IMG/VR virus record: IMGVR_UViG_2939121850_000002
Coordinates: 1-43,171 of that record
Reading direction: 5' to 3' (one strand)
Length of the DNA stretch: 43,171 nucleotides
Source of the DNA: a virus
Taxonomy: Duplodnaviria > Heunggongvirae > Uroviricota > Caudoviricetes
Position numbers and translations under genes: made by a program. Of the stretch, positions 17,632 through 43,171 are shown piece after piece. Positions within the stretch are counted from its first letter, which is position 1, and each line of letters begins with the position of its first letter. The notes under the pieces are model-generated. The model did no database searches, had not been told where the DNA came from, and was given only the letters and a program-made list of their open reading frames with translations.

Positions 17632-17644
17632 TAGAAGGTAAGCT

Positions 17645-25046: not shown

Positions 25047-25136
25047 TTAACCCATAACGTGCAATGGCTGTCTTTATGAGGCCTGGCACCCTATTGCCTT
25101 CCGATGGGCTGAACATCGAGTAAACAGGGGTAACAA

Positions 25137-26030
25137 ATGGACCAGATGGCAGAAAACACACCAGAAGTTGAAATCGAAACCGACGCGTCAGAGCAGATTC
25201 CTGATGATGTCGAACTGGCTGAAGAAGTCGAAACAGAAGATGGCAGTGAGTCCTCCGGCAATGATGCAGAGGAAGCTACTGAAACTGATGACGACGAATC
25301 AGAACAGGAATTCTACTTTGGTGACGAAAAGCTGGATTCGCCAACCAGCGAAGATAGCGCAGAGCATGGACTGGTAAAACACCTGCGCAAGACGATTAAA
25401 GAGAAAGACCGCGAGCTGAAAGAGCTGATGCGTCAGTCTCAGAAACCCGTCGAGCAGCAGCCGGTAATCACTCAACCACCGCGAATGCCAAAACTGGATG
25501 ATGAGGACATCGGTTTCGATGAAGAAATCTACCAGCAACGCATGGCTAAGTGGGCAGAGGATAACGGCAAGTACCAGCAACAGGAGATGGCTCGCAAGCA
25601 GAAGGAGCAGGAGCTTCAGGCTGCCTATCAAGAGCGATTATCCAAATATCAGCAACGTGTTAAGGCTCTCAAAGTTCCTGGCTATCAGGAAGCTGAGCAG
25701 GCCGTACTCGAGGAAATCCCCACCGAGACACAAAACGCGATCTTGTTTGAGTCAGAGAAGCCGGAAATCGTTGTTCTGGCACTCGGTCGCAACGCTGAAC
25801 TGCGCAAGCAACTGGCAGAAGCTACCAACCCCGTAGCAATTGGTCGTCTGCTGGAACGTATCGAATCGAAGGCCAGAATCATGCCAAAAGCAAAAACCAC
25901 GGCAGCCACAACCCCGACAGTTAAGGGGAGCAACGGCGCAGTAATCAACAACCTCGACAAACTGAAAGCCAAGGTGCTGGAAACTGGTGACTGGACGCCG
26001 TATTTCGCCGCCAAAAAGGCAAAAAAATAA
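25137..26030 (+). CDS. Scaffolding protein (P22 gp8-type)
   Basis: Highly acidic, coiled-coil, ~300 aa; between portal and coat. Confidence 0.75.
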   Translation: MDQMAENTPEVEIETDASEQIPDDVELAEEVETEDGSESSGNDAEEATETDDDESEQEFYFGDEKLDSPTSEDSAEHGLVKHLRKTIKEKDRELKELMRQSQKPVEQQPVITQPPRMPKLDDEDIGFDEEIYQQRMAKWAEDNGKYQQQEMARKQKEQELQAAYQERLSKYQQRVKALKVPGYQEAEQAVLEEIPTETQNAILFESEKPEIVVLALGRNAELRKQLAEATNPVAIGRLLERIESKARIMPKAKTTAATTPTVKGSNGAVINNLDKLKAKVLETGDWTPYFAAKKAKK

Positions 26031-26048
26031 CCTATCGGAGCATTAAGC

Positions 26049-27302: not shown

Positions 27303-27309
27303 TTTTGGT

Positions 27310-27329
27310 GGGGCTTCGGCCCCATTTTT
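27310..27329 (+). terminator. Hairpin plus T-run immediately after the coat gene (attenuator)
   Basis: GGGGC-ttcg-GCCCC followed by aTTTTTaTTT. Confidence 0.55.
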
Positions 27330-27343
27330 ATTTGGAGAAGACA

Positions 27344-27532
27344 ATGGCACGAACAATGCTCTATAAGCCTGGCAACATGATCACATGTGGTCAGTTTGCT
27401 GTCGATTACATCATTGTTGATGACGAAGAAGTTAAATCTCACCTGAAAAAAGGCTGGGTAAAAACTCCTGAAGAAACCGCAACGAAGCATAAAGTGGCTA
27501 AGGCGGAAGAAGATGGCGAAAACGAAGGGTGA
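27344..27532 (+). CDS. Small hypothetical protein between coat and gp4 (62 aa)
   Basis: GGAG RBS; ATG at 27344. Confidence 0.4.
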   Translation: MARTMLYKPGNMITCGQFAVDYIIVDDEEVKSHLKKGWVKTPEETATKHKVAKAEEDGENEG

Positions 27533-27974
27533 TCTCGTTCTTAAGGCTTTACGAAAAGCCGGGCTGTATTCCAATGCCACGTTGACAGATGCCGACCCTC
27601 AGGCAATAGAAGATGCCATTAATGACCTAGAAGACATGATGGCAGCATGGCAGGCGAAAGGTATCGAGCTTGGATATCAGTTTGCTGATACAGAAAACGG
27701 CATCATGCCGTTACCTGACGATGATTCAGGTATCCCTGCATGGGCAAATGATGGCGTCGCTTTGAAACTCGCTGTGCAAGTGTGCATGGATAACGTCATT
27801 CAGCCGTCAGATGCTCTCCTTACCGCTGCTGACAGCGCATATCAGACAATCTGCATCGCTTTAACCAAAATACCACCACTTGAGCGGCGAAATGACATGC
27901 CTCGCGGTAGTGGTAACAAAAGCGCGTTTACGTGGAATCGGTTTTACATCGAGAAAGATGATCCGAGTACGTGA
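27513..27974 (+). CDS. Head-completion / tail-adaptor protein (P22 gp4-type)
   Basis: MAKTKGDLVLKALRKAGLYSNATLTDADPQ... collinear with P22 gp4. Confidence 0.75.
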   Translation: MAKTKGDLVLKALRKAGLYSNATLTDADPQAIEDAINDLEDMMAAWQAKGIELGYQFADTENGIMPLPDDDSGIPAWANDGVALKLAVQVCMDNVIQPSDALLTAADSAYQTICIALTKIPPLERRNDMPRGSGNKSAFTWNRFYIEKDDPST

Positions 27975-27983
27975 GGTGAATAA

Positions 27984-29402
27984 ATGCCGATTCAGCAACT
28001 TCCGCTTATGAAAGGTGTCGGCAAAGACTTTCGAAACGCCGACTATATCGACTATCTGCCAGTGAATATGCTGGCTACACCCAAAGAAATCCTCAACAGC
28101 AGCGGATATCTTCGCTCATTCCCGGGCATTGCCAAACGTTCTGATGTGAACGGTGTATCTCGAGGCGTCGAGTACAACATGGCGCAGAATGCTGTCTATC
28201 GTGTGTGTGGCGGCAAGCTCTACAAAGGCGAAAGCGAGGTCGGTGACGTCGCCGGAAGTGGTCGCGTATCAATGGCGCATGGTCGGACATCACAGGCGGT
28301 AGGCGTTAACGGGAAACTGGTCGAGTATCGCTATGATGGCACGGTTAAAACCGTCTCAAACTGGCCTACAGACAGCGGATTCACGCAGTATGAGTTAGGC
28401 TTAGTCCGCGACATTACGCGCTTACGTGGGCGTTATGCGTGGTCAAAAGACGGCACTGATTCATGGTTTATCACTGACCTTGAAGACGAATCACATCCTG
28501 ACCGATACAGCGCACAATATCGGGCAGAATCACAGCCTGACGGCATCATCGGCATAGGTACATGGCGAGACTTCATAGTCTGCTTTGGTTCGTCGACGAT
28601 TGAATATTTCTCCCTGACTGGTGCAACCACTGTTGGTGCTGCTTTGTATGTCGCACAGCCATCGCTGATGGTGCAAAAAGGCATCGCCGGGACTTACTGC
28701 AAAACGCCGTTTGCTGATTCCTATGCTTTCATCAGCAACCCGGCAACTGGTGCGCCGTCTGTGTACATCATCGGCTCCGGTCAGGTATCACCAATCGCCA
28801 GCGCGAGCATTGAGAAAATACTACGCTCCTACACTGCTGATGAACTGGCTGATGGTGTGATGGAATCGCTGCGGTTTGATGCTCATGAGTTGCTGATTAT
28901 CCACCTTCCTCGCCATGTTCTCGTGTACGACGCATCTTCAAGCGCCAATGGTCCGCAATGGTGTGTACTGAAAACAGGCTTGTATGACGATGTGTACCGC
29001 GCTATCGACTTCATTTACGAAGGAAATCAGATAACGTGCGGCGATAAGCTGGAATCCGTGACCGGGAAACTGCAATTCGATATCAGCAGCCAGTACGACA
29101 AGCAGCAGGAACACCTGCTGTTTACTCCACTCTTCAAAGCAGATAACGCCAGATGCTTTGATCTGGAGGTGGAATCATCGACGGGTGTTGCTCAGTACGC
29201 TGACCGCCTTTTTCTCTCTGCAACCACTGACGGCATAAATTACGGTCGTGAGCAGATGATTGAGCAGAATGAACCGTTCGTTTACGACAAACGCGTTTTG
29301 TGGAAGCGAGTCGGGCGCATCAGGAAAAATGTCGGCTTCAAATTGCGCGTTATCACGAAGTCACCTGTCACTCTGTCTGGCTGCTCTATTAGGCTGGAGT
29401 AA
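27984..29402 (+). CDS. Tail-hub protein (P22 gp10-type)
   Basis: 472 aa, same length and position as P22 gp10. Confidence 0.75.
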   Translation: MPIQQLPLMKGVGKDFRNADYIDYLPVNMLATPKEILNSSGYLRSFPGIAKRSDVNGVSRGVEYNMAQNAVYRVCGGKLYKGESEVGDVAGSGRVSMAHGRTSQAVGVNGKLVEYRYDGTVKTVSNWPTDSGFTQYELGLVRDITRLRGRYAWSKDGTDSWFITDLEDESHPDRYSAQYRAESQPDGIIGIGTWRDFIVCFGSSTIEYFSLTGATTVGAALYVAQPSLMVQKGIAGTYCKTPFADSYAFISNPATGAPSVYIIGSGQVSPIASASIEKILRSYTADELADGVMESLRFDAHELLIIHLPRHVLVYDASSSANGPQWCVLKTGLYDDVYRAIDFIYEGNQITCGDKLESVTGKLQFDISSQYDKQQEHLLFTPLFKADNARCFDLEVESSTGVAQYADRLFLSATTDGINYGREQMIEQNEPFVYDKRVLWKRVGRIRKNVGFKLRVITKSPVTLSGCSIRLE

Positions 29403-29404
29403 TA

Positions 29405-29899
29405 ATGATTTCACATGAAGAGTTGAAGCGTCATTTATCATATGACCCAGAAACCGGGGTTTTTACCCGAAAAATATCAAATACAGCGAGCGTCACCGTT
29501 GGTGATGAAGCGGGAACCATGTGCACTGGTTATTTAAGGATAATGGTCTGTGGTAAGAGATACTTAGCGCATAGGCTTGCTTGGTTTTATATGACAGGAA
29601 AACCTGCAAATTGCTTAATAGATCATATTAACGGAGACAGAACGGATAACAGATTTTCAAATTTAAGATTGGCAAATAGATCCCAGAATGGGATGAACAG
29701 GAATATTCAAAGAAATAATAAGTCAGGATATCCGGGTGTCTGTTGGCACAAAAATCTCTGCAAGTGGACTGTTTCTTTCAAGAAAAATAAAAAACAGGTT
29801 CACGTTGGATGCTTCGATGACCTGGACGAAGCTATCTCAGCATCAATGATGGCAAGAGCAGAAAATTTTGGAGAGTTTGCAAGGCAGAGGATTGAGTAA
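29405..29899 (+). CDS. HNH-AP2 homing endonuclease inserted between gp10 and gp26
   Basis: HNH motif ([42 protein letters not shown]) plus AP2-like domain ([10 protein letters not shown]...WTVSF...[14 protein letters not shown]); locally AT-rich. Confidence 0.75.
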
Positions 29900-30600
29900 T
29901 GGTTGATTCATCACTGAATGATCCTGTCGTGGTTCAGGCTACGCGCCTTGATGCTTCAATTTTGCCACGCAATATATTCAGCCAGTCTTACCTGCTGTAT
30001 GTCATAAATCAGGGTGCTGATGTTGGCGCAATTGCCGGGAAGGCAAATCAGGCTGGTCAGGGCGCTTACGATGCCCAGGTAAAAAACGATGAACAGGACG
30101 TCGAACTGGCAGATCACGATGCAAGAATCACCGCAAACACAAAAGCGATAAATCTACTTGAGGTCAGGTTAACAACTGCCGAAGGGAAGATAGTCGTACT
30201 GCGTAGCGATGTTGATTACTTGCTGGATGAGGTTATCGATATTCAGGCGCATCTGGTCACTGTTGACCAAAGACTGGATGGCGTAGAAAGCGATGTATCT
30301 GACATTAAGAGTGATTACGTATCGAAAACCGTAACCGAATCGCAGTCTCTTGCGTCACCGCTGGATGTAAAAACATCATATTCAGTTGATGGAATTCAGG
30401 TTGTTGGAGCAAGAAATACCGGATGGACTGCAGCCACAGGTACGCCACTTCTTGGCTCATTCAACGCTAACCAGTCATACACTGTCGGCACTACGTACAC
30501 GCAATCCGAAGTCGCAGCTCTCGCTACAGGTTTGCAGCAGGCGCGGCAGCGTATTCTGGCGCTTGAAACAGCACTTAGATTACATGGGCTGATTGACTGA
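29899..30600 (+). CDS. Tail needle (P22 gp26-type)
   Basis: N-terminus [29 protein letters not shown] and C-terminus [13 protein letters not shown] match P22 gp26; 233 aa. Confidence 0.85.
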
Positions 30601-31055
30601 TGATTACATTCAAACCAACGCGAAACATCGACCTGATAGAAGCCGTGGGAAATCACCCCGACATTATCGCCGGGAGCAACAACGGTGATGGATACGACTA
30701 CAAGCCTGAATGCCGTTACTTTGAGGTTAACGTGTACGGTCAGTTTGGCGGCATTGTTTACTATCAGGAGATTCAGCCGCTGACATTCGATTGCCACGCC
30801 ATGTACCTGCCAGAGATTCGCGGCTTCAGCAAGGAAATCGGGCTGGCGTTCTGGCGATACATTCTGACTAACACCACCGTTCAGTGCGTCACATCGTTCG
30901 CTGCACGCAAATTCCGCCACGGTCAGATGTACTGCGCAATGATTGGCCTTAAGCGAGTAGGAACCATAAAGAAATACTTCAAAGGCGTGGATGACGTGAC
31001 TTTTTACAGCGCAACACGCGAAGAACTAATCGACTTCCTGAATCACGGGAGATAG
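30600..31055 (+). CDS. Ejection/assembly protein (P22 gp14-type)
   Basis: Synteny and size. Confidence 0.65.
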   Translation: MITFKPTRNIDLIEAVGNHPDIIAGSNNGDGYDYKPECRYFEVNVYGQFGGIVYYQEIQPLTFDCHAMYLPEIRGFSKEIGLAFWRYILTNTTVQCVTSFAARKFRHGQMYCAMIGLKRVGTIKKYFKGVDDVTFYSATREELIDFLNHGR

Positions 31056-31057
31056 CC

Positions 31058-31750
31058 ATGTTATATGCATTTAAGCTGGGCAGAAAACTGCGCGGCGAGG
31101 AACCTTATTGCCCTGAAAAAGGCGGGAAAGGTGGCAGTTCTGATAAAAGCGCAAAGTATGCCGCAGAAGCTCAGAAGTATGCAGCAGACCTGCAAAATCA
31201 GCAGTTCAACACCATCATGAACAACCTGAAGCCGTTTACTCCTCTGGCTGATAAGTATGTCGGCAGCCTCGAGAACTTATCGTCTCTGGAAGGGCAAGGT
31301 CAGGCACTTAACCAGTATTACAACTCTCAGCAGTACAAAGATCTTGCTGGTCAGGCTCGTTATCAGAGTCTGGCGGCAGCGGAAGCAACAGGTGGATTAG
31401 GTTCCACCGCAACCAGTAATCAGTTAGCAACAATCGCACCAACGCTTGGTCAGCAATGGCTATCTGGACAAATGAACAATTACAACAACCTGGCAAATAT
31501 CGGTCTTGGCGCTCTTCAGGGGCAGGCAAACGCCGGGCAGACATACGCCAACAACATGAGTCAGATTTCACAGCAAAGCGCGGCTCTTGCAGCGGCAAAC
31601 GCCAACCGACCGTCAGCATTGCAGCAGGGGGTTAGTGGTGCTGCATCCGGTGCGCTTTTGGGTGGTGGCATAGCCAGTGCTCTCGAGCTATCAACTCCGT
31701 GGGGTGCTGGTATCGGTGCTGGTCTTGGTCTGCTTGGCTCGTTGTTTTAA
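31058..31750 (+). CDS. Ejection protein (P22 gp7-type)
   Basis: 230 aa with a Gly/Ala-rich C-terminus; synteny. Confidence 0.7.
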   Translation: MLYAFKLGRKLRGEEPYCPEKGGKGGSSDKSAKYAAEAQKYAADLQNQQFNTIMNNLKPFTPLADKYVGSLENLSSLEGQGQALNQYYNSQQYKDLAGQARYQSLAAAEATGGLGSTATSNQLATIAPTLGQQWLSGQMNNYNNLANIGLGALQGQANAGQTYANNMSQISQQSAALAAANANRPSALQQGVSGAASGALLGGGIASALELSTPWGAGIGAGLGLLGSLF

Positions 31751-31760
31751 GGGGTAATCA

Positions 31761-33146
31761 ATGGCTACGTGGCAACAGGGTATTAATTCTGGTGGTTTTC
31801 TGGCTGGCATCGGTACGCAAAATGAGAATGCGCCAAAGGCAAGCGACATTAACGCAACGCTTGGTCTGATCCGCGAAAACAATGAACTGGCTCGCTCAGG
31901 TGCAAATAACGTTGGCCTGACCGCGTTACGTGGTCTGGCTGGAGTTGCTGATATTTATAAGCAGGAACAGCAACAGAAAGCGATTAGTGCGTTCAATAAG
32001 GTTCACGCTGATGCATGGGCTTCTGGTGATCCATCGGGACTATTTAAGTTTGCCCAGGAAAATCCAGCGTTTGTTGCACAGGCACAACAGGCGTTTTCCG
32101 GTCTTAATGAGCAGCAACGCAACGATATGGGCGATTTAGCCATGAGAGCTAACGTCGCTCTTTCTCAGGGACCGGAAGCCTACAGTAAATTCATTACTGA
32201 CAACAAGGACAGGTTAAATCGCGTGGGTGCGAATGCTGACTGGATGATTCAGACAGGTATCCAGAATCCAGAGCAGCTATCACACATGCTGACTACTATG
32301 TCTCTCGGTGCACTTGGGCCAGAAAAGGCGTTTGCTGTTCAGGATAAGATGGTTGGTCGCCAGCAGGAGCAGCAAAGAATTAACGAAACCATTCGCAATA
32401 ATGACATGACGAATGCGAGGGCTATTAGGGGGCAAAACCTTTCCTATCAGTCTGCAATGACCGGACACGGACTTGCAGCAGAAAGACTGGCACTTGATAA
32501 GCAGAAATTCGGTTTTGAAGTACAACAGGCACAAAAAAAGGCCGAGGAACTTATTAATGCTGCGCCAAAATTATCAGTGAACATGGAAAAGGCTATAGAA
32601 AAATCAGCAGGTGATGCGGCAGCTAGTCGTAATGCTGCCGATTCAATGACAACGCTCGCTGACACGCTGGAGAGGGAGAAGCCAACTCCTGGTTTGTTCG
32701 GTAACGCTGAAAATATGTTCTCTAAGCTTACGGGGCAAGATAACTACCTCCGAGATATGCGGATTAGATTCAACCAACTAGCCAATGCGCAGGCAACCAA
32801 GCTTCTCCCTCCAGGCCCTGCATCAGATAAGGATATTGAGTTTGCAAGGAAAGGCATTCCAAGCGAAACGGATAATCCAATGGTCATGGCTCGATGGTTA
32901 AGGGGTATGGCAAAAATGGAAAGTAATAACGCGAAGTTCAACGAGTTTAGGTCAGAGTGGATGAGTGCAAACGGCAGCCCAGGACAATCTGATCGCAACC
33001 GAAACATCATGGGGATGGATGTTAAGAAGGGTGAATCATTGAACTCTGCGGCAAAACGTTTTCTTTCCTCAAGTTATGGCGATATCCAACCTCAACAGCA
33101 ATTGTCCGATGACGAATTAATTAGCAAATATCTCGGAGAGCAGTAA
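31761..33146 (+). CDS. Ejection protein (P22 gp20-type)
   Basis: 461 aa; synteny. Confidence 0.7.
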
Positions 33147-34963
33147 TGGCCTATAGTCGCGAACAGTTGATGACGGCGTTAAGGAATGCTGATGCTGCCG
33201 GCGATACTGAGGGAGCACGTCGCATTGCTCAGATGCTGTCTTCTGGTGATCAATCCACTCAAAACCAATCGCAGCCAGAAGAACAATCTCTGGTAGGAAA
33301 AGCTACTGACTGGCTCACTGGTGGTCAAAGTGCAGGGCAAATTGCAGAACAGGCAGGTCGTGGTCTGGTAAACATACCATTTGACGTATTGCAGGGTGGC
33401 GCAAGTCTGATTAATGCAATCAGCCAGGGGCTTGGCGGCCCCAAGGTTTTGGATGATGTCTATCGTCCAGTCGATCGACCGACAGACTCTTACGCACAAG
33501 CCGGTGAAACAATTGGTGGGTATTTAGTTCCAGGAGTTGGAACGGCAGGAAGCATGGCTATTGGCTCACTGGCAGAGGCCGCAAATCAGAAAGGCGATTT
33601 CGCACAAAATGCAGCTAAAAATGCCGGAGTTAACCTTGCCGCTCAGGGGGTTCTTTCCGCAGCAGCAAAGGGAATAGGGCGTGGAATTACTGCTGTTCGT
33701 GGCGAAATATCACCAGCAGATCAGCAATTGCTCAAGCGTGCCGCTGCGGCAGATGTACCAGTTATGACATCGGATGTAGTTCCTCCAAAAACAAAACTTG
33801 GCAATCAACTGCAGGGTTACTCAGAAGGAGTCATAGCTGGTACTGGACCAATGAGATCCGCACAGCAGGATGCTAGAACCAAGCTTGTTAATCGCTTCAC
33901 CGAAAAATACGGCGACTACGATCCATCTGTAGTCGTTGATAGTCTAAAGTCAGGCGTTGCAAGGGAAAAATCGTTAGCCAAGTCAAAACTAAACAACCTG
34001 TCAGGAAGAATGGTTGGAAAGCCAGTTGATACAAATGGCGCCATAAGAGCTATCGACGGAGCAGTAAACGAACTTGGGAAACTTAAAGGTGTTTCTGACA
34101 CCCAGACCATTTCTGCGCTTAATGATTATAAGAATGCCATTCAGGAGATAACAAATGGAGATGATGCCTTTGAGTTACTTGATAAGCTGAGAACTCAGTT
34201 CCGCATTGACGTAAAAGGCGATCGTACAGTTCTGCCATCAATGTCGCAAACAATGGTCGACAGGGTCTACAACTCGCTAACCAATAGCCTTAGTAAATCT
34301 ATAGCAAAAGGACTTAGCCCAAAAGATGCTTCAGCATGGAGAGCGGGAAAAGCTGATTATGCAAAAATGGCAACACATGCAACTCAAACGCGCCTTAAAA
34401 ACGTTCTAAACAAAGGAGATTTAACTCCAGAGGCTGTAAATACCATTGTGTATGGACAATATGGGTCAGATATAGCTCGATTGTACGGGAAACTCGATCA
34501 AAAAGGTAAAGACATGCTAAGGGCGGCATATATCAGCAAAATAGCTGACAAGGTAGGTGACAGCCCTCAGAAAATGATGACCGAGCTTGGCAAGCTGCAA
34601 AAACAAGCAAATGGTCAGGTGTTTAAAACTGTATTTGGTGGGAAGAACGGAAAAGAGATAGAGGGGATGTTATCTATTCTCGATGCTACCAAAAGAGCAT
34701 CTGAGGCTAATGTTGTGACGAAGACTGGCATGACACTCGCGCCTTTGGTAAGGGTTATTGGTAACCTAAAAACCGGAGGCGCGCTATTGGCTGGGGAAAC
34801 AGGGATTGGCCTTATGTCGAGGGTTTATGAAAGCCCTATGGCCAGGAATGCGTTCTTACGTCTGGCAAACACCAAAGCAGGAACGCCAGCCTATGAAAGA
34901 GCATTAAGTAACGCTGCAAATGCCATCAGACCGCTGCTTGCCACTGAGGCAACACAGCAGTGA
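33146..34963 (+). CDS. Ejection protein (P22 gp16-type)
   Basis: 605 aa; synteny. Confidence 0.7.
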   Translation: MAYSREQLMTALRNADAAGDTEGARRIAQMLSSGDQSTQNQSQPEEQSLVGKATDWLTGGQSAGQIAEQAGRGLVNIPFDVLQGGASLINAISQGLGGPKVLDDVYRPVDRPTDSYAQAGETIGGYLVPGVGTAGSMAIGSLAEAANQKGDFAQNAAKNAGVNLAAQGVLSAAAKGIGRGITAVRGEISPADQQLLKRAAAADVPVMTSDVVPPKTKLGNQLQGYSEGVIAGTGPMRSAQQDARTKLVNRFTEKYGDYDPSVVVDSLKSGVAREKSLAKSKLNNLSGRMVGKPVDTNGAIRAIDGAVNELGKLKGVSDTQTISALNDYKNAIQEITNGDDAFELLDKLRTQFRIDVKGDRTVLPSMSQTMVDRVYNSLTNSLSKSIAKGLSPKDASAWRAGKADYAKMATHATQTRLKNVLNKGDLTPEAVNTIVYGQYGSDIARLYGKLDQKGKDMLRAAYISKIADKVGDSPQKMMTELGKLQKQANGQVFKTVFGGKNGKEIEGMLSILDATKRASEANVVTKTGMTLAPLVRVIGNLKTGGALLAGETGIGLMSRVYESPMARNAFLRLANTKAGTPAYERALSNAANAIRPLLATEATQQ

Positions 34964-34980
34964 CTAAATGCCATGGATGG

Positions 34981-35169
34981 TTATTTCCTTAGCACATGAA
35001 ACAATGTTTGCTTTAATTCCACCCATACAATTATGACCACTATAGACAGACAAAAGAAACTGAATGCATTGGCATCACGATCGAAACCTTCTCCGGCACT
35101 AAATCCGTAAAAGGTCATAAAAAATATAAAAATTGCGCACTTTGCAACGTTTACAAATTTTTTCTTCAT
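34981..35169 (-). CDS. Small membrane protein (62 aa), convergent with gp16
   Basis: ATG at 35169 preceded by a strong AAGGAGG; hydrophobic segments; AT-rich. Confidence 0.45.
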   Translation of the reverse strand: MKKKFVNVAKCAIFIFFMTFYGFSAGEGFDRDANAFSFFCLSIVVIIVWVELKQTLFHVLRK

Positions 35170-35199
35170 ACCAACCTCCTTAGTTTTGCGCAGGATACC

Positions 35200-35565
35200 A
35201 TGAAAAAAGTTAACATTGGAAACGTACCAAAGATGCTCGTTCCGCTCTTTGAGAGCGGTACAATTGTGTTTTGTAGAGACTTTCCAGAATGGCAACGCCT
35301 GCATCAAAAACTTGGCGTTGACGTGCAGGACTCGGATGCCAACGGAGCGTCTCATACAATGAGCAGCGAGAATGGTGTTTTGCATGTGATAGGCGTGTTC
35401 AATGGCAAACTATCTACTATTGCCCATGAGTGCGCTCACATGGCATTCGATATCTGCTCAAGGGTAGGTGTTGATGTTGAACCAGGAAGAGCCAACGAGA
35501 CTTACTGCTACTTAATGAGCAGGCTTGTTGAGTTCTGCGAGCGACATATCAAAAAGCCGGAGTGA
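35200..35565 (+). CDS. Small HExxH-motif protein (putative minimal zinc metallopeptidase), 121 aa
   Basis: IAHECAHMAF; divergently arranged ~30 bp from the 62-aa membrane protein gene. Confidence 0.45.
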   Translation: MKKVNIGNVPKMLVPLFESGTIVFCRDFPEWQRLHQKLGVDVQDSDANGASHTMSSENGVLHVIGVFNGKLSTIAHECAHMAFDICSRVGVDVEPGRANETYCYLMSRLVEFCERHIKKPE

Positions 35566-35578
35566 CCCGGCTTGATTA

Positions 35579-35803
35579 TTACTTTTTTTGGTATGTTAAG
35601 AATGGCAAGTCGCCAGTGTACCCCAAGCGGAAAAGCTCCAATTGCTTATCTCTTATGGATAAAAAATAATCGTTTCTTGCCTTTTTAAGCCACAACCAGC
35701 CGATCATCAAGATGAATAATATTGATATTATTGGCATCGGGGAGATCAACACCACTCCGATGAATAATGACGCTAGCAGCACCGATAAAATAGCAGAAAT
35801 CAT
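35579..35803 (-). CDS. Small two-TM membrane protein (74 aa)
   Basis: Two hydrophobic helices; AT-rich. Confidence 0.45.
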   Translation of the reverse strand: MISAILSVLLASLFIGVVLISPMPIISILFILMIGWLWLKKARNDYFLSIRDKQLELFRLGYTGDLPFLTYQKK

Positions 35804-35828
35804 ACTAATCTCCCACTAAGGTAACAAT

Positions 35829-36014
35829 ATGACTATAGAAGAACGTCTGAACAACATTGAGTTAAACCAAACCCTGCTTGACCAGCGACTTTCAGAGCTT
35901 GAACTTAAAGATCTAGATGCGCAAATATCAGAAGCAGAAGCCAAGCTCTCCAGCTTAAACCACCGTAAGAAGCAAATCCGCGACAGAATTACTCGTGGAC
36001 GCGGAGGCTGTTAA
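35829..36014 (+). CDS. Small coiled-coil protein (61 aa)
   Basis: Heptad-like Leu/Glu pattern and basic C-terminus; weak RBS. Confidence 0.3.
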   Translation: MTIEERLNNIELNQTLLDQRLSELELKDLDAQISEAEAKLSSLNHRKKQIRDRITRGRGGC

Positions 36015-36091
36015 GGTGTGATGGTAATCCTTGCTCACTAAATTTAAGGATGCGAATCTTTCCGGCCATAGGAGTAATCATGATTTACCCA

Positions 36092-36628
36092 TCAAACAAC
36101 CCACCAGTTTGCCTGATTGGATACCAGCCTTGCAGTTTTTATGGAATTAATTATGCCATGCTCAAGAGCCTTGTTAGCATCCAAAATGGTCGAGTCTGCT
36201 ATCAGGGATGCCCACCTAATATGGGTTCCGATGTCGATATTGAACGTCTCAACGAAGCGATCAAGATCGTTATCGAGGCATTTCCCGTACTCTCTCAATC
36301 TGGCATGGTCGGCGGCTGGGGTGGCAAAGCCCCATAATAGAGGATGTAACAGGAATCTTGATAATGGGTTTGCGAAACGTTCTGAGCCAGCCAGGAAAAC
36401 GATATTAGCTATGGATTCAACATTGCTTATGTTGTGAGTTCTAACGGTAACAGGGAGTGACTTAAGAAAGTTATACGCAGTAAAACCAGCGGCAGTTTCC
36501 CCTCCCTGACTTGATATATGGATATTTAATTCAGTTGCGCCTTGAGATAATGCGGTGAGACAGTGGTTCTGAAGTTGCCCAACAGTGGCAGTGTTAACGG
36601 GGCATAAGAAATGAATTGTGTGCAGCAT
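36092..36628 (-). CDS. ClpP-fold (Clp/crotonase-type) serine peptidase-like protein, translationally coupled to mnt
   Basis: Aligns by eye to the ClpP catalytic core (Ser in ...NVESIANIVFLAGSER..., His in ...FLLHPL...); its start shares one nucleotide with the mnt stop (TAATG). Confidence 0.55.
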   Translation of the reverse strand: MLHTIHFLCPVNTATVGQLQNHCLTALSQGATELNIHISSQGGETAAGFTAYNFLKSLPVTVRTHNISNVESIANIVFLAGSERFANPLSRFLLHPLLWGFATPAADHARLREYGKCLDNDLDRFVETFNIDIGTHIRWASLIADSTILDANKALEHGIINSIKTARLVSNQANWWVV

Positions 36629-36864
36629 TATTTTTCATCCTTACCATACATGGTTTTCAGCGTCTCAAGCAGCGCATCCCTGAATTTGTCAGCCTCTTTC
36701 TGAGCAAATTCATTGCTATTAAGCGATCTACCACAAACAGCATCTTCGATAATCTGTATTATTTCAGCATTCATGGAACGCTTGTTATGTTGCGCCCTGG
36801 CTTTAACCTTTTCCTTTAACTCTTTGGAAATCCTAATATTTATTTGCGGCTCTTCGCGTGACAT
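36628..36864 (-). CDS. mnt: Mnt-like ribbon-helix-helix repressor (immI maintenance repressor)
   Basis: RHH N-terminus (INIRISKELKEKVKARAQHNKRSMNAEIIQIIEDAV) as in P22 Mnt; divergent from arc-ant. Confidence 0.7.
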   Translation of the reverse strand: MSREEPQINIRISKELKEKVKARAQHNKRSMNAEIIQIIEDAVCGRSLNSNEFAQKEADKFRDALLETLKTMYGKDEK

Positions 36865-36916
36865 ACCACCTCCATAGCATTTTGGTGATATTACTATTGC
36901 ATCACTGCGATCACAA

Positions 36917-36935
36917 TGGTATAACGGTTATACCA
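36917..36935. promoter_or_regulatory. Perfect 19-bp palindrome in the mnt/arc intergenic region (candidate Mnt/Arc operator)
   Basis: TGGTATAAC-G-GTTATACCA, between divergent mnt and arc. Confidence 0.45.
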
Positions 36936-36952
36936 AATTGATTGGAGGTAAT

Positions 36953-37126
36953 ATGATAGTCAAGTCAGACGCACCAAAGTACCCTTTGCGCATCCCATTA
37001 GAGGTTAAGTTAGCAATCGAGAAGTCAGCGAAAGAAAATGGTCGCTCAATAAATACCGAGATGGTAATGCGGTTGGTGGATAGTTTAAGGCGGGATAGTT
37101 CTAAAGGTAATCTAGCAAAAAGTTGA
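36953..37126 (+). CDS. arc: Arc-like ribbon-helix-helix repressor
   Basis: 57 aa with PLRIPLEVKLAIEKSAKENGRSINTEMVMRLVDSL, similar to P22 Arc. Confidence 0.7.
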   Translation: MIVKSDAPKYPLRIPLEVKLAIEKSAKENGRSINTEMVMRLVDSLRRDSSKGNLAKS

Positions 37127-37205
37127 AGCCCCAACTGCGGTAACAGTCAGGGCTTCGGTTGTCGGTAAATCCGTGGAGAAAAACCAACATGAATAGTATA
37201 GCAAT
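37112..37205 (-). ncRNA. Candidate sar-like antisense RNA across the arc-ant junction
   Basis: Minus-strand intrinsic terminator (7-bp stem GAAGCCC/GGGCTTC, then TTTTT on the minus strand) in the arc-ant intergenic region, where P22 sar RNA terminates. 5' end and promoter not determined. Confidence 0.3.
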
Positions 37206-38091
37206 TTTAGAAGCAGTGAACACCTCTTACGTGCCTTTCAATGGTCAGCAAATTATCACCGCCATGGCTGCCGGAGTTGCATATGTTGCGATGAAACCAA
37301 TCGTTGAAAACCTCGGAATGAGTTGGGGTACTCAGCAACAAAAACTTATGAAACAACTAGATAAGTTCAACTGTATTCATATGAATATGGTTGCTGCTGA
37401 TGGAAAGCTTCGTAAGCTACTCTGCCTTCCTTTGAAGAAGTTAAATGGATGGCTGTTCAGCATCAACCCTGAGAAAGTTCGTGCTGACATCCGTGATAAA
37501 CTGATTCAGTACCAGGAAGAATGCTTTACTGTGCTGCATGACTACTGGACGAAGGGAAAGGCAGAAAATGCACGTAAGAAAACATCTGTTGATGACAGGA
37601 CTCCGCTTCGTGATGCTGTAAATATGCTAGTCAGCAAAAAGCATCTAATGTACCCAGAAGCTTATGCAATGATTCATCAGCGTTTCAATGTGGAAAGTAT
37701 TGAAGAGCTTGATGCATCTCAGATACCGCAAGCCGTAGAGTACATCCACAGGGTAGTGCTTGAAGGCGAGTTAATCGGCAAACAAGAGAAGAAAACCAAC
37801 GAGCTTTCTGCAAAAGAAGCAAACAGCCTTGTATGGTTATGGGATTATGCCAACCGTTCACAGGCATTATTCCGCGAACTGTATCCGGCATTAAAACAAA
37901 TTCAATCGAACTATTCCGGCAGATGCTACGACTACGGTCATGAGTTCTCGTATGTTATCGGAATGGCGAGAGACGTTTTAATCAATCACACACGAGATAT
38001 TGATATCAATGAGCCAGACGGACCAACGAATCTTTCCGCATGGATGAGACTTAAGAATAAAGAATTACCTCCTTCAGTACATAACTACTGA
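37189..38091 (+). CDS. ant: Antirepressor Ant
   Basis: [52 protein letters not shown]... matches P22 Ant as recalled; GGAGAA RBS. Confidence 0.8.
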
Positions 38092-38110
38092 CAGATAACC
38101 AACGCAAAGA

Positions 38111-38132
38111 CCCAGCTTCGGCTGGGTTTTTT
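38111..38132 (+). terminator. Rho-independent terminator between ant and the tailspike gene
   Basis: CCCAGC-ttcg-GCTGGG followed by TTTTTT. Confidence 0.65.
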
Positions 38133-38190
38133 ATGCCCAAAACTCACCGTAGCTATGCTGCGGCGATTCCTTGCATCTGGAGCAAATTAA

Positions 38191-40641
38191 ATGACAGATT
38201 CAATAAATGCCAATGTTGTAGTGAGTATGCCTTCGCAACTCTTCACTATGGCTCGTTCTTTTAAAGCCGTAGCCAATGGCAAAATTTATATCGGTAAAAT
38301 TGACACTGACCCGGTAAATACTGAAAACCAGATTCCGGTTTATGTAGAGAACGAAGACGGCTCTCACGTTCCTGTTTCTCAACCAATCATCATTAACGCT
38401 GCTGGTTATCCTGTATATAACGGACAGATTGCTAAGTTCGTTACTGTACAAGGGCATTCTATGGCTGTGTACGATTCATATGGATCACAGCAGTTCTATT
38501 TCCCTAATGTGCTGAAGTACGATCCAGATCAGTTTTCATATTTGCTGAAAAGTGATGATGGCTATAAGTATATAGGAGAATGCAAAGATATATCTACATT
38601 GAGAACAATTGAACCAAGTTATGATGGACAGGTTATAAGACTGAGGGGATATTACTCTGACAGCTATTCAGGAGGTGGAAGGTTTTTCCGTAGTGTTAAT
38701 CCTGATGGATTGACAGATAACGGAGGAACGATAATTTTCACATCAGAAGGAAATGTATGGAAATCAGATGATATATATAATGTTATGCTTGAGGATTTCG
38801 GAGCTAAAGATGGCGCTGACAACACCGAAGCATTTCATAAAGCAATTAACTCACCAGCAAAAAAAATCACAACAAATATAAAAGAGTTGATACTAACAAA
38901 CAATATTGTAATTACACGCGGCGACCTGGCAATTGATATGCCTGATACGGAGATAATATGGAATGCTCCGGAAGGGCATATTCCTGATAGAAGTGGATCT
39001 ACAAATCCAAGTAACTATCGTTTTCCTGGCATTCTAGCATTTCGCGGCACTGCTGGAGATATAATAGACTCTTTTACTCTAACAAATAGAATATCAAAAG
39101 GAGATACAACATATTGGTGTACGAACAACTCTCTTTTTGAGAATAGACAGTGGGTTATTATGTCATCGGATGTTGGCGGCGGAACCGTAGGTAGAGAAAT
39201 AAATGTAATGACACAAGTGCAGGGCAGTGGTGGAGCAATAACTCAATTGCGAGTTGATTATAAAACAGGCTGGCATCTTGATGTCGGAAGGGTATTGACA
39301 TATAGAAATGTAACCCCAATAGAAAATGTAAGAATTGCTTTTAAAGGCGTAAAATGGAATCAAAACATAACAGATGCTTCAGGTAGTGGCGATGGATTTG
39401 CCAGTCAACAATCATGCGCACTTGTGTCCCTTGAATACGTAAATAACGCTGACATTTGTCTCGGGTATGGATTTAATCACCCTTACCCAATGGTTGTAAC
39501 TGCCATGGTCAGGAATGTTTTTGTTCATGATACGGAAACAAATTTCCCAAGAGTTCCAGGGTCCGATCATGTTGTTCAATTCAATAACGCATATGAATGC
39601 CACGCAAGAAGATTACGCAATATTTCAGGCAGGCACGTAGTTGATTTTAGTGGTGCAAGTTATTGCTCTGTAAGAGATTGCGGAGAAACAGGAACAAGAA
39701 ATGGTGCATTTACTACGCACGGTATGTTTGAGCACAATTTGCGATTTGATAATAATTATGGTCTTTTAAGCATTGCAAACAGTGGTGAATATTATGGTGA
39801 GTCAGCAGATAATATAACTGTAACCCATCATTTCGGAGATTATTTAATTGCAACTTCAAAAGTTACCAACCTTAACATATTGCATGCAATATTTACAAAA
39901 GGTGCAAGATTAAACAATGATGCCGTCACATTGATTGATGTTACTATTGGAGAAAACTCAACTGATGCCGATAGAGGGCTTAGATTTACCCAAAGCTCTA
40001 ATGTTTATGGGCGTGGGGCAAAAATATTCGGCTGTGACATTGTGTTAAACAAGCAAGCAGGGAATGCTCTGCCTGATTCTCTTAACCAAAGGGTGAAAAT
40101 CGAATCGACATATATCAGGAATTCAAACGCTTCATATTATGGTGGTAGTTGGATTGAACTAATTAATTGTGATGTTTCAGGATCAGGTTCAAGTCTTGAG
40201 AATGTTGTTGCTGCAACGCGGTTTAGCATGCTGTCCGGATCATTATCTAATACTGGTTTTATTTTTCAAGGCCCATCAGAGCAAATCGTAAAAATACATG
40301 ACGTTTCACAGTCTGGAACAGGAGCGTCAGGGCTTAATAGTCATTTTATTTTAAATAAAGATGAGGCAGGAAGTGGACCAATAACAATGTCATATAAAAA
40401 TAATCAATGTATATTGAGCGGAGAAACATGCGCATTCAAAATAAATAATGCTTCAGGAGCATTCAGAGTAAACTCTACAGGGAATACGTTTCAAGGTGGA
40501 AAAATAGAGTTTCAGAAATCTATTACATCAGGTGGCAGTTACTTAAATCACACTGGAAACGTAGAGCGTGGCGTTAGTAGAGTCAACGAGCCAGAAAATA
40601 CTCCATATATAGTAACAACAGGGAATATGATAATTCCCTGA
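38191..40641 (+). CDS. Tailspike (P22 gp9-type head-binding domain with a divergent AT-rich receptor-binding domain)
   Basis: First ~115 aa ([43 protein letters not shown]...[12 protein letters not shown]...[10 protein letters not shown]) match the P22 gp9 head-binding domain; the remaining ~700 aa are AT-rich and unrecognised. Confidence 0.85.
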
Positions 40642-40769
40642 TATAATATAAATCGCCAAGGATGGCTCATTCAAATAAGAATCTTTAGTAATCAGATTGT
40701 TAATTAAAGATGGTTTGTTGGTTTTTATGTTTATTAAAAAAGGTTATATCAACGCGCTGTTATTGTTCT

Positions 40770-41963
40770 TTAATCAACCTTCCCATCAAGCCAGTCCGCC
40801 CACCACTGCATCATTTCTCTGCGCTTATCGAGATACTGAGCATGGTTGTAAATTCCACGCACAGAACCGCCGTTGGCATGTGCTAGTTGCACTTCAATGG
40901 CGTCGGCAGGCCATTCGTGCTCGTTCATAATCGTGCTGAATTCATGCCTGAATCCGTGACCGCTTTCCAGACCTTCATAGCCGATTTGTTTGATCACAAG
41001 CAGTACCGCGTTCTCGCAGATTGGCTTCTTCTTATCGTTGCGCCCGGCAAAAACAAACTCTGAGACTGGTTTGGTTATTGAGCTTAGCGTAGTGAGAAGT
41101 TCAACCACCTGGTCTGACATCGGGACCACATGAATTTTGCGTCCCTTCATCACACTGGCGTCGATGGTGATAATCCTGTTTTCAAAATCGACGTTCTTCC
41201 ATAGCATGGAACGAAGCTCTTTCGTTCTTAGGGCTGTGTAGCGTAAAACTTTGGTCGCAATGAGCGATACGATACTTCCTGAAAATGTTGCCAGTGCTTT
41301 GTTGAATGCAGGGATCTGGTCTGCTGGAAGAAACGGGAAGTTCTTCTTGCGGTATCCTTTCATGGCGTCTGCAAGGTCAGGTGCCGGGTTATATTTAGCC
41401 CTTCCGGTGACAATAGCGTAACGAAAAACCTCGCCGCATCTTCTGCGGGCTTTGTTGGCTCGCTCCATTGCACCGCGATCTTCAAATCTGCGGATTACTT
41501 CCAGCAGTTGCATCGGCTCAATATCCTGAATCTCAAGACCGCCGATGATGGGTAAAATGTCGTCATCAAACATTTTGGCAAGTTCAGTTGCATAGCCTAC
41601 TGACCAGACTTGCTTCTTGTGCTCGTACCATTCCTTGTAAATCGCACTAAATGAATTGTTGTTAGACGAAGCCTTTTTCGCCTTTACCGGATCTATGCCA
41701 ACCGAGATGTCTTTCCTCGCAGTCCATGCCTTATCCCTTGCTTCCTGCAAAGTCATAAGCGGATATTTTCCGACAGTCAGGATTTTCTCCTTACCGTCAA
41801 TCTTGTAGCGAAGCTGCCATACCTTTTTCCCTGATACAGGGACATAAAGGTACAGGCCATTACCATCGAGAAGGCGGTATGGTTTTTCTTTCGGCTTTGC
41901 TGCTTCAATCTGCTTAACGGTGAGCATGGGTAAAAATCCGGTGGGTAAAATTATTTTATCCAC
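40770..41963 (-). CDS. intS: P4-type tyrosine integrase (IntS-like)
   Basis: N-terminus (LTVKQIEAAKPKEKPYRLLDGNGLYLYVPVSGKKVWQLRY) is typical of P4-family integrases; transcribed away from argW. Internal Met at 41927 may be the true start. Confidence 0.85.
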   Translation of the reverse strand: MDKIILPTGFLPMLTVKQIEAAKPKEKPYRLLDGNGLYLYVPVSGKKVWQLRYKIDGKEKILTVGKYPLMTLQEARDKAWTARKDISVGIDPVKAKKASSNNNSFSAIYKEWYEHKKQVWSVGYATELAKMFDDDILPIIGGLEIQDIEPMQLLEVIRRFEDRGAMERANKARRRCGEVFRYAIVTGRAKYNPAPDLADAMKGYRKKNFPFLPADQIPAFNKALATFSGSIVSLIATKVLRYTALRTKELRSMLWKNVDFENRIITIDASVMKGRKIHVVPMSDQVVELLTTLSSITKPVSEFVFAGRNDKKKPICENAVLLVIKQIGYEGLESGHGFRHEFSTIMNEHEWPADAIEVQLAHANGGSVRGIYNHAQYLDKRREMMQWWADWLDGKVD

Positions 41964-42088
41964 TTTTTACCCGTCATGGAGTGCGGCTGTCAACGATCTG
42001 ACGCGAACCATTACGAACTGTTAATCTACGGAAGGCTTGATATTCAGGGGATTTTGCGGACTGGTACGGATGGGAGCGAACTGATAAA

Positions 42089-42103
42089 TGGCGTCCCCTG
42101 CAG
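42089..42103. repeat. Prophage attachment core, right copy, forming the 3' end of argW
   Basis: tggcgtcccctgcag; partner of 1312-1326. Confidence 0.6.
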
Positions 42104-42163
42104 GAATCGAACCTGCAATTAGCCCTTAGGAGGGGCTCGTTATATCCATTTAACTAAGAGGAC
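42089..42163 (-). tRNA. argW: tRNA-Arg (anticodon CCU)
   Basis: 75-nt cloverleaf on the minus strand: acceptor GTCCTCT/AGGGGAC, anticodon loop CTCCTAA, T-arm GCAGG-TTCGATT-CCTGC, encoded CCA end. Confidence 0.9.
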
Positions 42164-42238: not shown

Positions 42239-43171
42239 TTATGCCGGGTTTTTATCATTTTTCTTAATGTTTTCCGCACGTTCTGCTTTTTGGCGTGCTT
42301 CTGCTTTACGCTTGTTGCTCATGTCGTTACGAATCTGTGCATGACTCATTAACGCGAAGATAAAGGTGCCGCCGCAGATGTTCCCCGCTAAAGTAGGTAG
42401 TGCGAAGGGCCAGATGAAATCGCTCCAGTGCAGCGTACCGTTAAACACCAGATAGAGGATTTCAACAGAACCGACCACGATATGGGTGGTGTCACCCAGG
42501 GCAATAAGCCAGGTCATCAATATAATCACCACAATCTTTGCCGCACCTGCTGCAGGAAACATCCATACCATAGTGGCGATCAGCCAGCCGGAAATGATCG
42601 CGTTGGCAAACATCTCGCTGGGGGTGTTCTTCATCACATCCATGCCGATTTTGACAAATGCATCGCGAGTTTCTTCATTGAAGATAGGCATATATTCAAA
42701 TGCCCATGCAGCAATACCTGTCCCGAGAATATTACCCAGCAGCACGACGCCCCATAATCGCATAAGTAAGCCGACGTTGCTCATTGTCGGTTTTTGCATG
42801 ACGGGTAGTACCGCAGTCACGGTGTTTTCGGTAAATAATTGCTGGCGGGCCATAATGACGATAATAAAACCAAAGGTATAACCGAGATTCTCCAGTAAGA
42901 AGCTGCCCGGCACACCTTCCAGTTCGACATGAAATATCCCTTTTGCCAGTAACGAAGCGCCCATCGACAGACCCGCCGCAATGGCTGACCACAGTAGCGC
43001 CATTGCGTCGCGTTCCAGCTCTTTTTCACCATCCTGGCGGATATGCTCATGAATTGCCATCGCCCGGGAGGGGAGTCGGTCTTCATCTATTTCTATTTTT
43101 TTGCCGCGCTCTTTTTCTTCGCTCTCAACTTCAATTTCGTCGCTGTGTTGATCAATTTTGTCGTTGTCCAT
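42239..43171 (-). CDS. yfdC: Formate/nitrite-transporter-family inner membrane protein (YfdC-like)
   Basis: 310-aa polytopic membrane protein; position next to argW as in E. coli K-12. Start codon sits at the window edge. Confidence 0.6.
   Translation of the reverse strand: MDNDKIDQHSDEIEVESEEKERGKKIEIDEDRLPSRAMAIHEHIRQDGEKELERDAMALLWSAIAAGLSMGASLLAKGIFHVELEGVPGSFLLENLGYTFGFIIVIMARQQLFTENTVTAVLPVMQKPTMSNVGLLMRLWGVVLLGNILGTGIAAWAFEYMPIFNEETRDAFVKIGMDVMKNTPSEMFANAIISGWLIATMVWMFPAAGAAKIVVIILMTWLIALGDTTHIVVGSVEILYLVFNGTLHWSDFIWPFALPTLAGNICGGTFIFALMSHAQIRNDMSNKRKAEARQKAERAENIKKNDKNPA

What the first reader, a model, noticed from the sequence alone, without database searches (positions are those of the whole stretch)
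42089..42163. The reconstituted argW 3' end differs at one base from the displaced host-type copy
The functional tRNA ends ...GGGGACGCCA, whereas the displaced left-end copy would encode ...GGGGACACCA. The mismatch falls at the discriminator base (position 73, G in the tRNA, A in the displaced copy). Which side of the crossover supplied each base is an inference, but if the tRNA 3' end here is phage-derived, integration has changed the discriminator of the only tRNA-Arg(CCU).
Basis: partly seen in the sequence, partly recalled or inferred. Interest (0 to 1): 0.4.

Follow-up and report, generated by a model that had tools for sequence, protein, structure and literature searches.

The report
Prophage rewrites argW tRNA discriminator base
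A P22-like prophage sits in the end of the E. coli arginine tRNA gene argW and supplies the gene's last four bases, and this phage's copy changes the unpaired base before CCA from A to G, a rare change that is probably harmless and illustrates a well-known integration mechanism.

Summary
argW (42089-42163, minus strand) ends GGGGAC-G-CCA. The displaced copy at 1312-1326 reads GGGGAC-A-CCA. The only mismatch in the 15-bp repeat is the discriminator (42092 vs 1315).

- A reconstructed empty site with A73 is 100% identical over 924 nt to at least 40 complete E. coli genomes.
- The unoccupied junction carries A in 2133 genomes and G in none.
- Overall 5374 of 5426 genomes have A73 and 45 have G73.
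- All 34 G73 genomes I classified have an integrase or integrase remnant directly 3' of argW, on at least six different element arms.
- One element arm is found only with G.
- Phage HZ41 carries the G-type core in a contiguous attP, with a P' arm nearly identical to the window's.

Host A at attR and G at attL place the crossover inside GTCCCCTGCAG (tRNA nt 62-72). G73, CCA and the 3' trailer are therefore phage DNA.

The effect is probably small. ArgRS identity allows A or G at 73, the predicted cloverleaf is unchanged, and 13 of 120 Enterobacterales species representatives have G73.

This is a minor variant of the known KplE1/HK620/Sf6 argW integration module.

The parts
1..870 (+). Host flank: 3' part of a LacY-family sucrose/oligosaccharide permease (cscB-like), running off the window start
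   Evidence: Pfam LacY_symp E=7e-133. The homologous gene in MS10495 is annotated as an oligosaccharide MFS transporter next to cscK/cscA/cscR.
871..1311 (.). Host DNA that directly follows argW in genomes with an unoccupied site (the B' arm)
   Evidence: The reconstructed attB (900-1326 joined to 42104-42600) is contiguous and 100% identical in at least 40 genomes. 1414 genomes cover at least 80% of it in one place.
1312..1326 (-). attR core: the displaced host-type copy of the argW 3' end (CTGCAGGGGAC-A-CCA in tRNA sense). The mismatch base is at 1315.
   Evidence: Phage similarity begins at 1312.
1327..42088 (.). Body of a P22-like (Lederbergvirus; Sf6/HK620/CUS-3/HZ41-like) mosaic prophage, about 40.8 kb
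   Evidence: Megablast finds 735 phage records. The best are vB_EcoP-720R6, IME10, HF4s, Sf101, Sf6 and CUS-3, at 95-98% identity over 34-46% of the query. Pfam finds a tailspike Head_binding domain and a P22 antirepressor.
1400..1600 (-). TorI-type recombination directionality factor (excisionase) at the prophage end opposite int
   Evidence: Intact 66-aa ORF. The collinear gene in MS10495 is annotated torI, and the flanks match at 99%. There was no Pfam hit.
40770..41927 (-). intS-type tyrosine integrase (385 aa)
   Evidence: Pfam Arm-DNA-bind_3, Phage_int_M and Phage_integrase. Annotated as prophage integrase IntS in the closest genomes.
41928..42088 (.). Phage P' arm of attL. It also forms the 3' trailer of argW and holds the intS promoter region.
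   Evidence: Conserved in free-phage attP sites. In KplE1, attL overlaps the intS promoter (PMC2951348).
42089..42103 (-). attL core, which is argW nucleotides 62-76 (CTGCAGGGGAC-G-CCA)
42089..42092 (-). Phage-supplied G73-C74-C75-A76 of the expressed tRNA. The discriminator is at 42092 (C on the + strand).
   Evidence: The host allele is A. The lysogen has G at attL and A at attR.
42093..42103 (.). Segment in which strand exchange must have taken place (GTCCCCTGCAG, tRNA nt 62-72)
   Evidence: This is an inference. The segment is bounded on one side by the A/G difference at 42092/1315 and on the other by the end of attP/attB identity at 42104/1327.
42089..42163 (-). argW, tRNA-Arg(CCU), a chimera of a host 5' part and a phage 3' end
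   Evidence: ARAGORN, Rfam 62.1 bits, and an intact predicted cloverleaf.
42239..43171 (-). Host flank: yfdC (formate/nitrite transporter family)
   Evidence: Pfam Form_Nir_trans. Annotated yfdC in all matched genomes.

Best explanation
A P22-like temperate phage of the Sf6/HK620/KplE1 argW-integrating group inserted into the 3' end of argW through its IntS-type tyrosine integrase. Strand exchange took place inside the 11 bp GTCCCCTGCAG (tRNA positions 62-72). Everything 3' of that in the expressed gene is therefore phage DNA: the discriminator, CCA and the trailer. The host's original A73-CCA end was displaced about 40.8 kb away to the other prophage end. This phage lineage carries G rather than the usual A at the discriminator position of its attP, so lysogeny converts the cell's single-copy tRNA-Arg(CCU) from A73 to G73. 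Shown here: the two copies and their single mismatch; the host-native allele is A; G73 occurs in E. coli only next to integrated elements; a free phage carries the G-type core. Inferred: that the infecting phage already carried G, rather than G arising in the lysogen; the exact exchange segment; and that the change is functionally near-neutral, because ArgRS accepts a purine at 73.
For: 1. Structure. The tRNA, the core repeat and the single mismatch are confirmed. intS lies next to attL and a torI-type RDF lies at the other end. Phage similarity ends exactly at the two cores.
2. Host allele. The reconstructed attB with A73 is 100% identical over 924 nt in at least 40 genomes. The empty-junction 31-mer occurs with A in 2133 genomes and with G in 0. 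Species-wide, 5374 genomes have A73 and 45 have G73. Fisher p = 2e-10, uncorrected for relatedness.
3. The G travels with elements. 18 G73 genomes have the Sf6-type P' arm. All 16 other G73 genomes I fetched have an integrase or integrase remnant directly 3' of argW, on five further arm types. The 420-aa-integrase arm never occurs with A.
4. Phage carriage. Phage HZ41 (OM022251.1) has a contiguous attP reading TGGCGTCCCCTGCAGGCATC, with a P' arm differing from the window's at 1 of 260 positions. MS10495 shares the window's P' arm plus G, yet differs at 31 sites in int and at 15 of about 1700 sites in the left flank, so the two are separate lysogens.
5. Diverse hosts. Five other Sf6-arm G73 genomes examined (those fetched) carry five different IntS proteins and four YfdC variants.
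6. Function. Arginine identity uses A/G73 (PMC9976931). The predicted cloverleaf and its energy are the same for A73 and G73. 13 of 120 Enterobacterales species representatives have G73.
Against: - No sequenced virion genome has exactly the attP predicted for this prophage, TGGCGTCCCCTGCAG-ACATC.
- All 16 other attP sequences of the family carry A: 14 IMG/VR matches plus the GenBank records of Sf6 and HK620. At least one IMG/VR contig (38,297 bp, with a flank identical to HK620's) appears to duplicate a GenBank phage, so distinct phages number fewer than 16.
- HZ41 is an UNVERIFIED record and differs at the base after the core.
- The G sits on at least 6 P'-arm haplotypes. A linked marker at 42022 seen at first did not hold up with more genomes. 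Recurrent mutation therefore cannot be excluded from sequence alone.
- The IntS overlap region has not been mapped experimentally as far as I could find.
- Eleven of the 45 G73 genomes were not individually inspected.
- Counts are not corrected for clonal relatedness.
Confidence: 0.8

Rival explanations
1. The G arose as a point mutation in the attL copy after integration in this lineage. The infecting phage had the usual A.
For: All 16 other attP sequences carry A. The exact predicted G-type attP is absent from 50,697 phage records. G occurs on many different P'-arm haplotypes, as recurrent mutation would produce.
Against: The identical 253-nt P' arm plus G occurs in MS10495, which has a different int (31 substitutions) and a diverged flank, and in phage HZ41's attP. 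A general mutational process should also hit unoccupied sites, yet 0 of 2133 have G. Because position 73 is on the phage side of the crossover, such a mutation would be exported with the phage at excision. This rival therefore differs only in timing.
Confidence: 0.13
2. G73 is the native host allele of this strain. The A in the left copy came from the phage, with the crossover 3' of the discriminator.
For: Most phages of the family do carry A in attP, which would fit an A at attR coming from the phage.
Against: No unoccupied site with G exists among the genomes searched, against 2133 with A. The window's own flanks joined with A are 100% identical to at least 40 genomes. The exchange would have to occur within the 3 bp TGG or in non-homologous DNA, which does not fit the 6-8 bp identical overlap that tyrosine integrases need (established knowledge of lambda-type integrases).
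Confidence: 0.04
3. The mismatch is a sequencing or assembly error in the window.
For: It is a single-base difference in a repeated sequence.
Against: The same G is present in 45 independently assembled complete genomes and in a phage record. In MS10495 the attL copy has G and the attR copy has A, as in the window.
Confidence: 0.01

Closest known systems
KplE1 (CPS-53) / HK620 / Sf6 / Kapi1 / CUS-3 argW recombination module (IntS integrase, TorI RDF, 16-17 bp core)
   Same: Same target (the 3' end of argW). Same core, CTGCAGGGGACACCA(T) (PMC2951348; PMC8787464). Same layout, with int beside attL and the RDF at the far end. int and the P' arm are 96-98% identical.
   Different: The core copy carried next to int has G instead of A at the discriminator position, so attL and attR are not identical. 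The papers I could search describe the core as an exact duplication. They do not mention a G variant.
General tRNA-gene integration by tyrosine integrases, in which the element restores the split gene and the displaced fragment marks the other end (Reiter et al. 1989; Williams 2002; Islander database, PMC4383910)
   Same: This is exactly that mechanism: the element-borne 3' segment regenerates the tRNA gene and a displaced fragment lies at the other end (abstract of PMC4383910).
   Different: Here the restored segment is not a faithful copy. It changes an aminoacylation identity position. I could not read Williams 2002, so whether comparable discriminator changes are tabulated there is unchecked.
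Phage HZ41 (OM022251.1, Lederbergvirus, UNVERIFIED record)
   Same: It carries the G-type core and a P' arm differing from the window's at 1 of 260 positions.
   Different: The base after the core is G rather than A. The rest of the genome is a different mosaic, covering 38% of window 1300-25000 at 94.7% identity.

Membership tests
IntS/TorI argW-integrating module (KplE1, HK620, Sf6) | Heterobivalent tyrosine integrase with an arm-binding N-terminal domain | tested here: met
   Pfam Arm-DNA-bind_3 (2e-25), Phage_int_M (6e-28) and Phage_integrase (5e-39). 96-98% DNA identity to the Sf6 and HK620 int genes.
IntS/TorI argW-integrating module (KplE1, HK620, Sf6) | Integration into the 3' end of argW with a duplicated core CTGCAGGGGACACCA(T) | tested here: met
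   The core is present at both ends and 14 of 15 bases are identical. The one difference is the discriminator. The core sequence is as published.
IntS/TorI argW-integrating module (KplE1, HK620, Sf6) | int next to attL, transcribed towards attL and argW (so attL overlaps its promoter region), with the TorI-type RDF at the opposite prophage end | tested here: met
   int is at 40770-41927 (-), next to 42089. A 66-aa ORF at 1400-1600 (-) is collinear with the annotated torI of MS10495.
IntS/TorI argW-integrating module (KplE1, HK620, Sf6) | Integrase-catalysed integration and excision at these sites | not testable with these tools
   This needs induction or an in vitro recombination assay.
P22-like phages (Lederbergvirus) | Genome similarity and hallmark virion genes | tested here: met
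   The best DNA matches are Sf6, Sf101, HK620-like, CUS-3, IME10 and HF4s. The tailspike has a P22-type Head_binding domain, and a P22 antirepressor is present.
Functional bacterial tRNA-Arg (substrate of E. coli ArgRS) | Cloverleaf with A20, C35, U/G36 and a purine at 73 | tested here: met
   ARAGORN and Rfam calls and the predicted cloverleaf. The anticodon is CCU. A20 was assigned by my own numbering of the D loop AAUGGAUA. G73 is a purine. The identity set is from PMC9976931.
Functional bacterial tRNA-Arg (substrate of E. coli ArgRS) | Normal aminoacylation and 5'/3' processing of the G73 form with the phage trailer | not testable with these tools
   This needs charging assays and tRNA sequencing.

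The most novel reading that the evidence does not exclude
The discriminator and CCA of argW behave as a mobile-element-owned part of a host tRNA. They evolve with phages and islands rather than with the chromosome. The G73 form, always brought by one island type and by about 1% of Sf6-type phages, may measurably alter charging, RNase P or 3' processing, or AGG decoding in lysogens. That would give the element a handle on rare-codon translation or on competition for the att site.
Probability: 0.1. Interest if true: 0.55.

Novelty: new member of a known kind. Interest (0 to 1): 0.3.

Why it matters
It gives a clean natural example of an integrating phage editing an identity position of a single-copy host tRNA instead of restoring the gene faithfully. 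The A/G difference also works as a natural marker. It confines IntS strand exchange to tRNA positions 62-72, and it flags argW alleles that owe their 3' end to a mobile element: 45 of 5426 genomes have G73, and none of those has an unoccupied site. In practice the effect on the cell is probably small. ArgRS tolerates either purine. argW also appears dispensable, since a 17-bp attB deletion strain was viable (PMC8787464). The value is therefore mainly for att-site annotation and as a modest test case for tRNA biology.

Tried and rejected
- I first read the left-flank gene as xapB from memory. Annotation and Pfam show it is a cscB-like LacY-family permease.
- I assumed the window was strain MS10495, because 41950-42300 matched at 100%. 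That is wrong. The int region differs at 31 sites and the left flank at 15. No complete genome in the collection has this int haplotype.
- A 31-mer search for the predicted G-type attP in 50,697 phage records found nothing. An IMG/VR pattern scan found only A-type attP. HZ41 was missed by the 31-mer because its base after the core differs. It surfaced only when I aligned P' arms.
- A marker at 42022 looked perfectly linked to G in the first sample. The link broke when five more G73 genomes were added, so I dropped it as an argument.
- Searches for earlier reports of a discriminator change at argW or through prophage integration found nothing relevant. Williams 2002 could not be read.

Full report
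**What is in the sequence**

ARAGORN finds a single tRNA in the window, tRNA-Arg(CCT), at 42089-42163 on the minus strand. Rfam's tRNA model matches 42092-42163 at 62.1 bits, and its last position, the discriminator, falls on 42092. In tRNA sense the gene ends ...CTGCAGGGGAC-G-CCA and is followed by tttatcagttcg.

The repeat finder pairs 1312-1331 with 42089-42108 (D15). On the + strand the copies read TGGTGTCCCCTGCAG (1312-1326) and TGGCGTCCCCTGCAG (42089-42103). Identity stops at 1327/42104 (A vs G) and at 1311/42088 (C vs A). The one internal mismatch, 1315 vs 42092, is position 73. No other copy with at most one mismatch exists in the window, against 0.0025 expected by chance.

**Context**

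- Between the two copies lies a prophage of about 40.8 kb. Its best DNA matches are P22-like phages Sf6, Sf101, HK620-like, CUS-3, IME10 and HF4s, at 95-98% identity over 34-46% of the query, a typical mosaic.
- A 385-aa tyrosine integrase with Arm-DNA-bind_3, Phage_int_M and Phage_integrase domains lies at 40770-41927 (-), next to the tRNA.
- A 66-aa ORF at 1400-1600 (-) is collinear with the annotated torI of strain MS10495.
- The host flanks are a cscB-like LacY-family permease (1-870) and yfdC (42239-43171).
- Similarity to free phage genomes begins exactly at 1312 on one side and ends at 42103 on the other. In Sf6 and HK620 the two arms are joined through one core that the depositors annotated as the attP core.
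- This is the KplE1/HK620/Sf6 argW module. Its published core is CTGCAGGGGACACCAT (PMC2951348), or AATGGTGTCCCCTGCAG for Kapi1 (PMC8787464).

**Which allele belongs to the host**

I joined the window's own flanks (900-1326 and 42104-42600) into a hypothetical unoccupied site carrying A73. At least 40 complete E. coli genomes match it at 100% over all 924 nt, and 1414 genomes cover at least 80% of it in one piece.

I then used 31-mers designed so that a mismatch at the discriminator removes every 28-nt megablast seed. The results were:

| 31-mer | Genomes matched (of 5426) |
|---|---|
| argW 3' end with A73 | 5374 |
| argW 3' end with G73 | 45 |
| Unoccupied junction (host B' arm + core + tRNA) with A | 2133 |
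| Unoccupied junction with G | 0 |

Fisher's exact test gives p = 2e-10, not corrected for relatedness. Even with only 15 independent events, the chance of zero G at unoccupied sites is about 5e-4. The displaced copy really is host-type.

**Where the G comes from**

Eighteen of the 45 G73 genomes have the Sf6-type P' arm next to the tRNA. That is about 1% of the 1717 genomes with this arm.

I fetched 16 of the other G73 genomes. Every one has an integrase or an integrase remnant directly 3' of argW, on five further arm types:
- a related 385-aa integrase (L73, 2452, M37H);
- a remnant (1303, PigCaeca_2);
- a 420-aa integrase (nine genomes);
- KCJ3K291;
- LZYWN_4.

The 420-aa-integrase arm joined to an A73 tRNA occurs in no genome, so that element always brings G.

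For the Sf6-type arm, 16 attP sequences carry A: 14 IMG/VR matches plus the GenBank records of Sf6 and HK620, with some duplication between the two sets. A 31-mer for the predicted G-type attP found nothing among 50,697 phage records.

Aligning P' arms then showed that phage HZ41 (OM022251.1, an UNVERIFIED record from waste water) has a contiguous attP reading TGGCGTCCCCTGCAGGCATC. Its P' arm differs from the window's at 1 of 260 positions. The 31-mer had missed it because the base after the core is G.

MS10495 has the same 253-nt P' arm plus G as the window. It differs at 31 sites in int and at 15 of about 1700 sites in the left flank, so it is a separate lysogen. Its attR also carries A. The five other Sf6-arm G73 genomes I examined have five different IntS proteins and four YfdC variants.

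**Mechanism**

The host attB has A and the lysogen has G at attL and A at attR. The exchange must therefore have occurred 5' (in tRNA sense) of position 73. It must also lie within the block of attP/attB identity, which leaves the 11 bp GTCCCCTGCAG (42093-42103, tRNA nt 62-72). That is enough room for the 6-8 bp overlap that tyrosine integrases need (established knowledge of lambda-type integrases; the inference is mine).

G73, C74, C75, A76 and the 3' trailer of the expressed argW are thus phage DNA. A mutation arising there in a lysogen would leave with the phage at excision. The rival of a post-integration mutation therefore differs from a phage-borne allele only in timing. I give it 0.13, mainly because the exact predicted attP has not been seen in a virion genome and because the G sits on at least six P'-arm haplotypes. 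A host-native G with a crossover 3' of the discriminator is effectively excluded, and so is a sequencing error (45 assemblies).

**Consequence**

Arginine identity in E. coli rests on A20, C35, U/G36 and a purine (A/G) at position 73 (Giegé and Eriani 2023, PMC9976931). This tRNA keeps A20 (my numbering of the D loop), C35 and U36.

The predicted cloverleaf and its energy are identical for A73 and G73. Among the first 120 Enterobacterales species representatives carrying this tRNA 3' half, 107 have A73 and 13 have G73. The G form is evidently tolerated in nature.

The gene seems dispensable, because a 17-bp attB deletion that removes its 3' end was viable (PMC8787464). I therefore expect at most a subtle effect on charging, end processing or AGG decoding. 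This was not testable here.

**Comparison and novelty**

In every tested structural feature this is a member of the known IntS/TorI argW module and of the P22-like phages. The mechanism is the textbook one, in which the element regenerates the tRNA gene and a displaced fragment marks the far end (PMC4383910).

The small new points are these:
- The regenerated end is not a faithful copy and changes an identity position.
- In 5426 complete E. coli genomes, G73 was found only where an element lies directly downstream of argW.
- One island type is fixed for G.
- The natural marker confines strand exchange to tRNA nt 62-72.

The searchable literature describes the core as an exact duplication and does not mention this variant. 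I could not read Williams 2002.

**Verdict**

It is a minor variant within a well-understood system. Interest is 0.3.

Noticed in passing
L162 (E. coli LZYWN_4, NZ_CP046416.1), locus about 1297-1305: Here the element-supplied end of argW reads GGGGAC-G-CTT. The gene has G73 but no encoded CCA, and RefSeq annotates it as only 72 nt. Another integrase arm (GCGAACTCAAAAC) lies downstream. Such a tRNA would depend on the CCA-adding enzyme.
   Followed up: partly
L020, L151-L155, L157, L160, L161 (E. coli genomes with a 420-aa integrase 3' of argW): An island with a 420-aa tyrosine integrase and an invariant arm (...GGTAGACAGGGTTC) is always joined to a G73 argW. The same junction with A73 occurs in none of 5426 genomes. 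In E14 the integrase is interrupted by IS3.
   Followed up: partly
L141 (phage HZ41, OM022251.1), locus about 1625-1645: The attP core is TGGCGTCCCCTGCAGG, followed by CATCTAC. Besides the G-type discriminator, the base after the core also matches the tRNA. Identity with a G73 argW is therefore 16 nt rather than 15.
   Followed up: partly
window 40650-42088: No complete E. coli genome in the collection has this int haplotype; the best identities listed are 97.8-98.3%. Even MS10495, which is identical over 41950-42300, differs at 31 sites in int. The window's source genome is not in the RefSeq complete set, or its prophage is a different mosaic.
   Followed up: partly
window 36092-36628 (-): A 178-aa ORF between the ejection-protein genes and the antirepressor gene has a ClpP-protease-family match (Pfam CLP_protease, E=4e-12). 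This is an unusual passenger at that position in a P22-like prophage.
   Followed up: no
window 37159-38091 (+) and 38191-40641 (+): A P22 Ant-type antirepressor (P22_AR_N and P22_AR_C) lies just upstream of the tailspike. Only the N-terminal head-binding domain of the 816-aa tailspike matches Pfam, so the receptor-binding part is unassigned. The closest genomes carry different tailspike proteins at this position.
   Followed up: no
L021-L140 (Enterobacterales species representatives): 13 of 120 species representatives carry G73 in this tRNA-Arg(CCU), including Pantoea, Xenorhabdus, Franconibacter and Pseudescherichia. I did not check whether those copies also lie next to integrated elements. 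The same arm (GTACGGCGGGA) occurs with G in E. coli 1303 and with A in E. albertii and a Citrobacter.
   Followed up: partly
window 1-870 and L001 4144-5391: argW is flanked by the sucrose (csc) locus. The cscB homologue in MS10495 is annotated as a pseudogene with an internal stop. In the window, the part visible (289 codons) is open.
   Followed up: no
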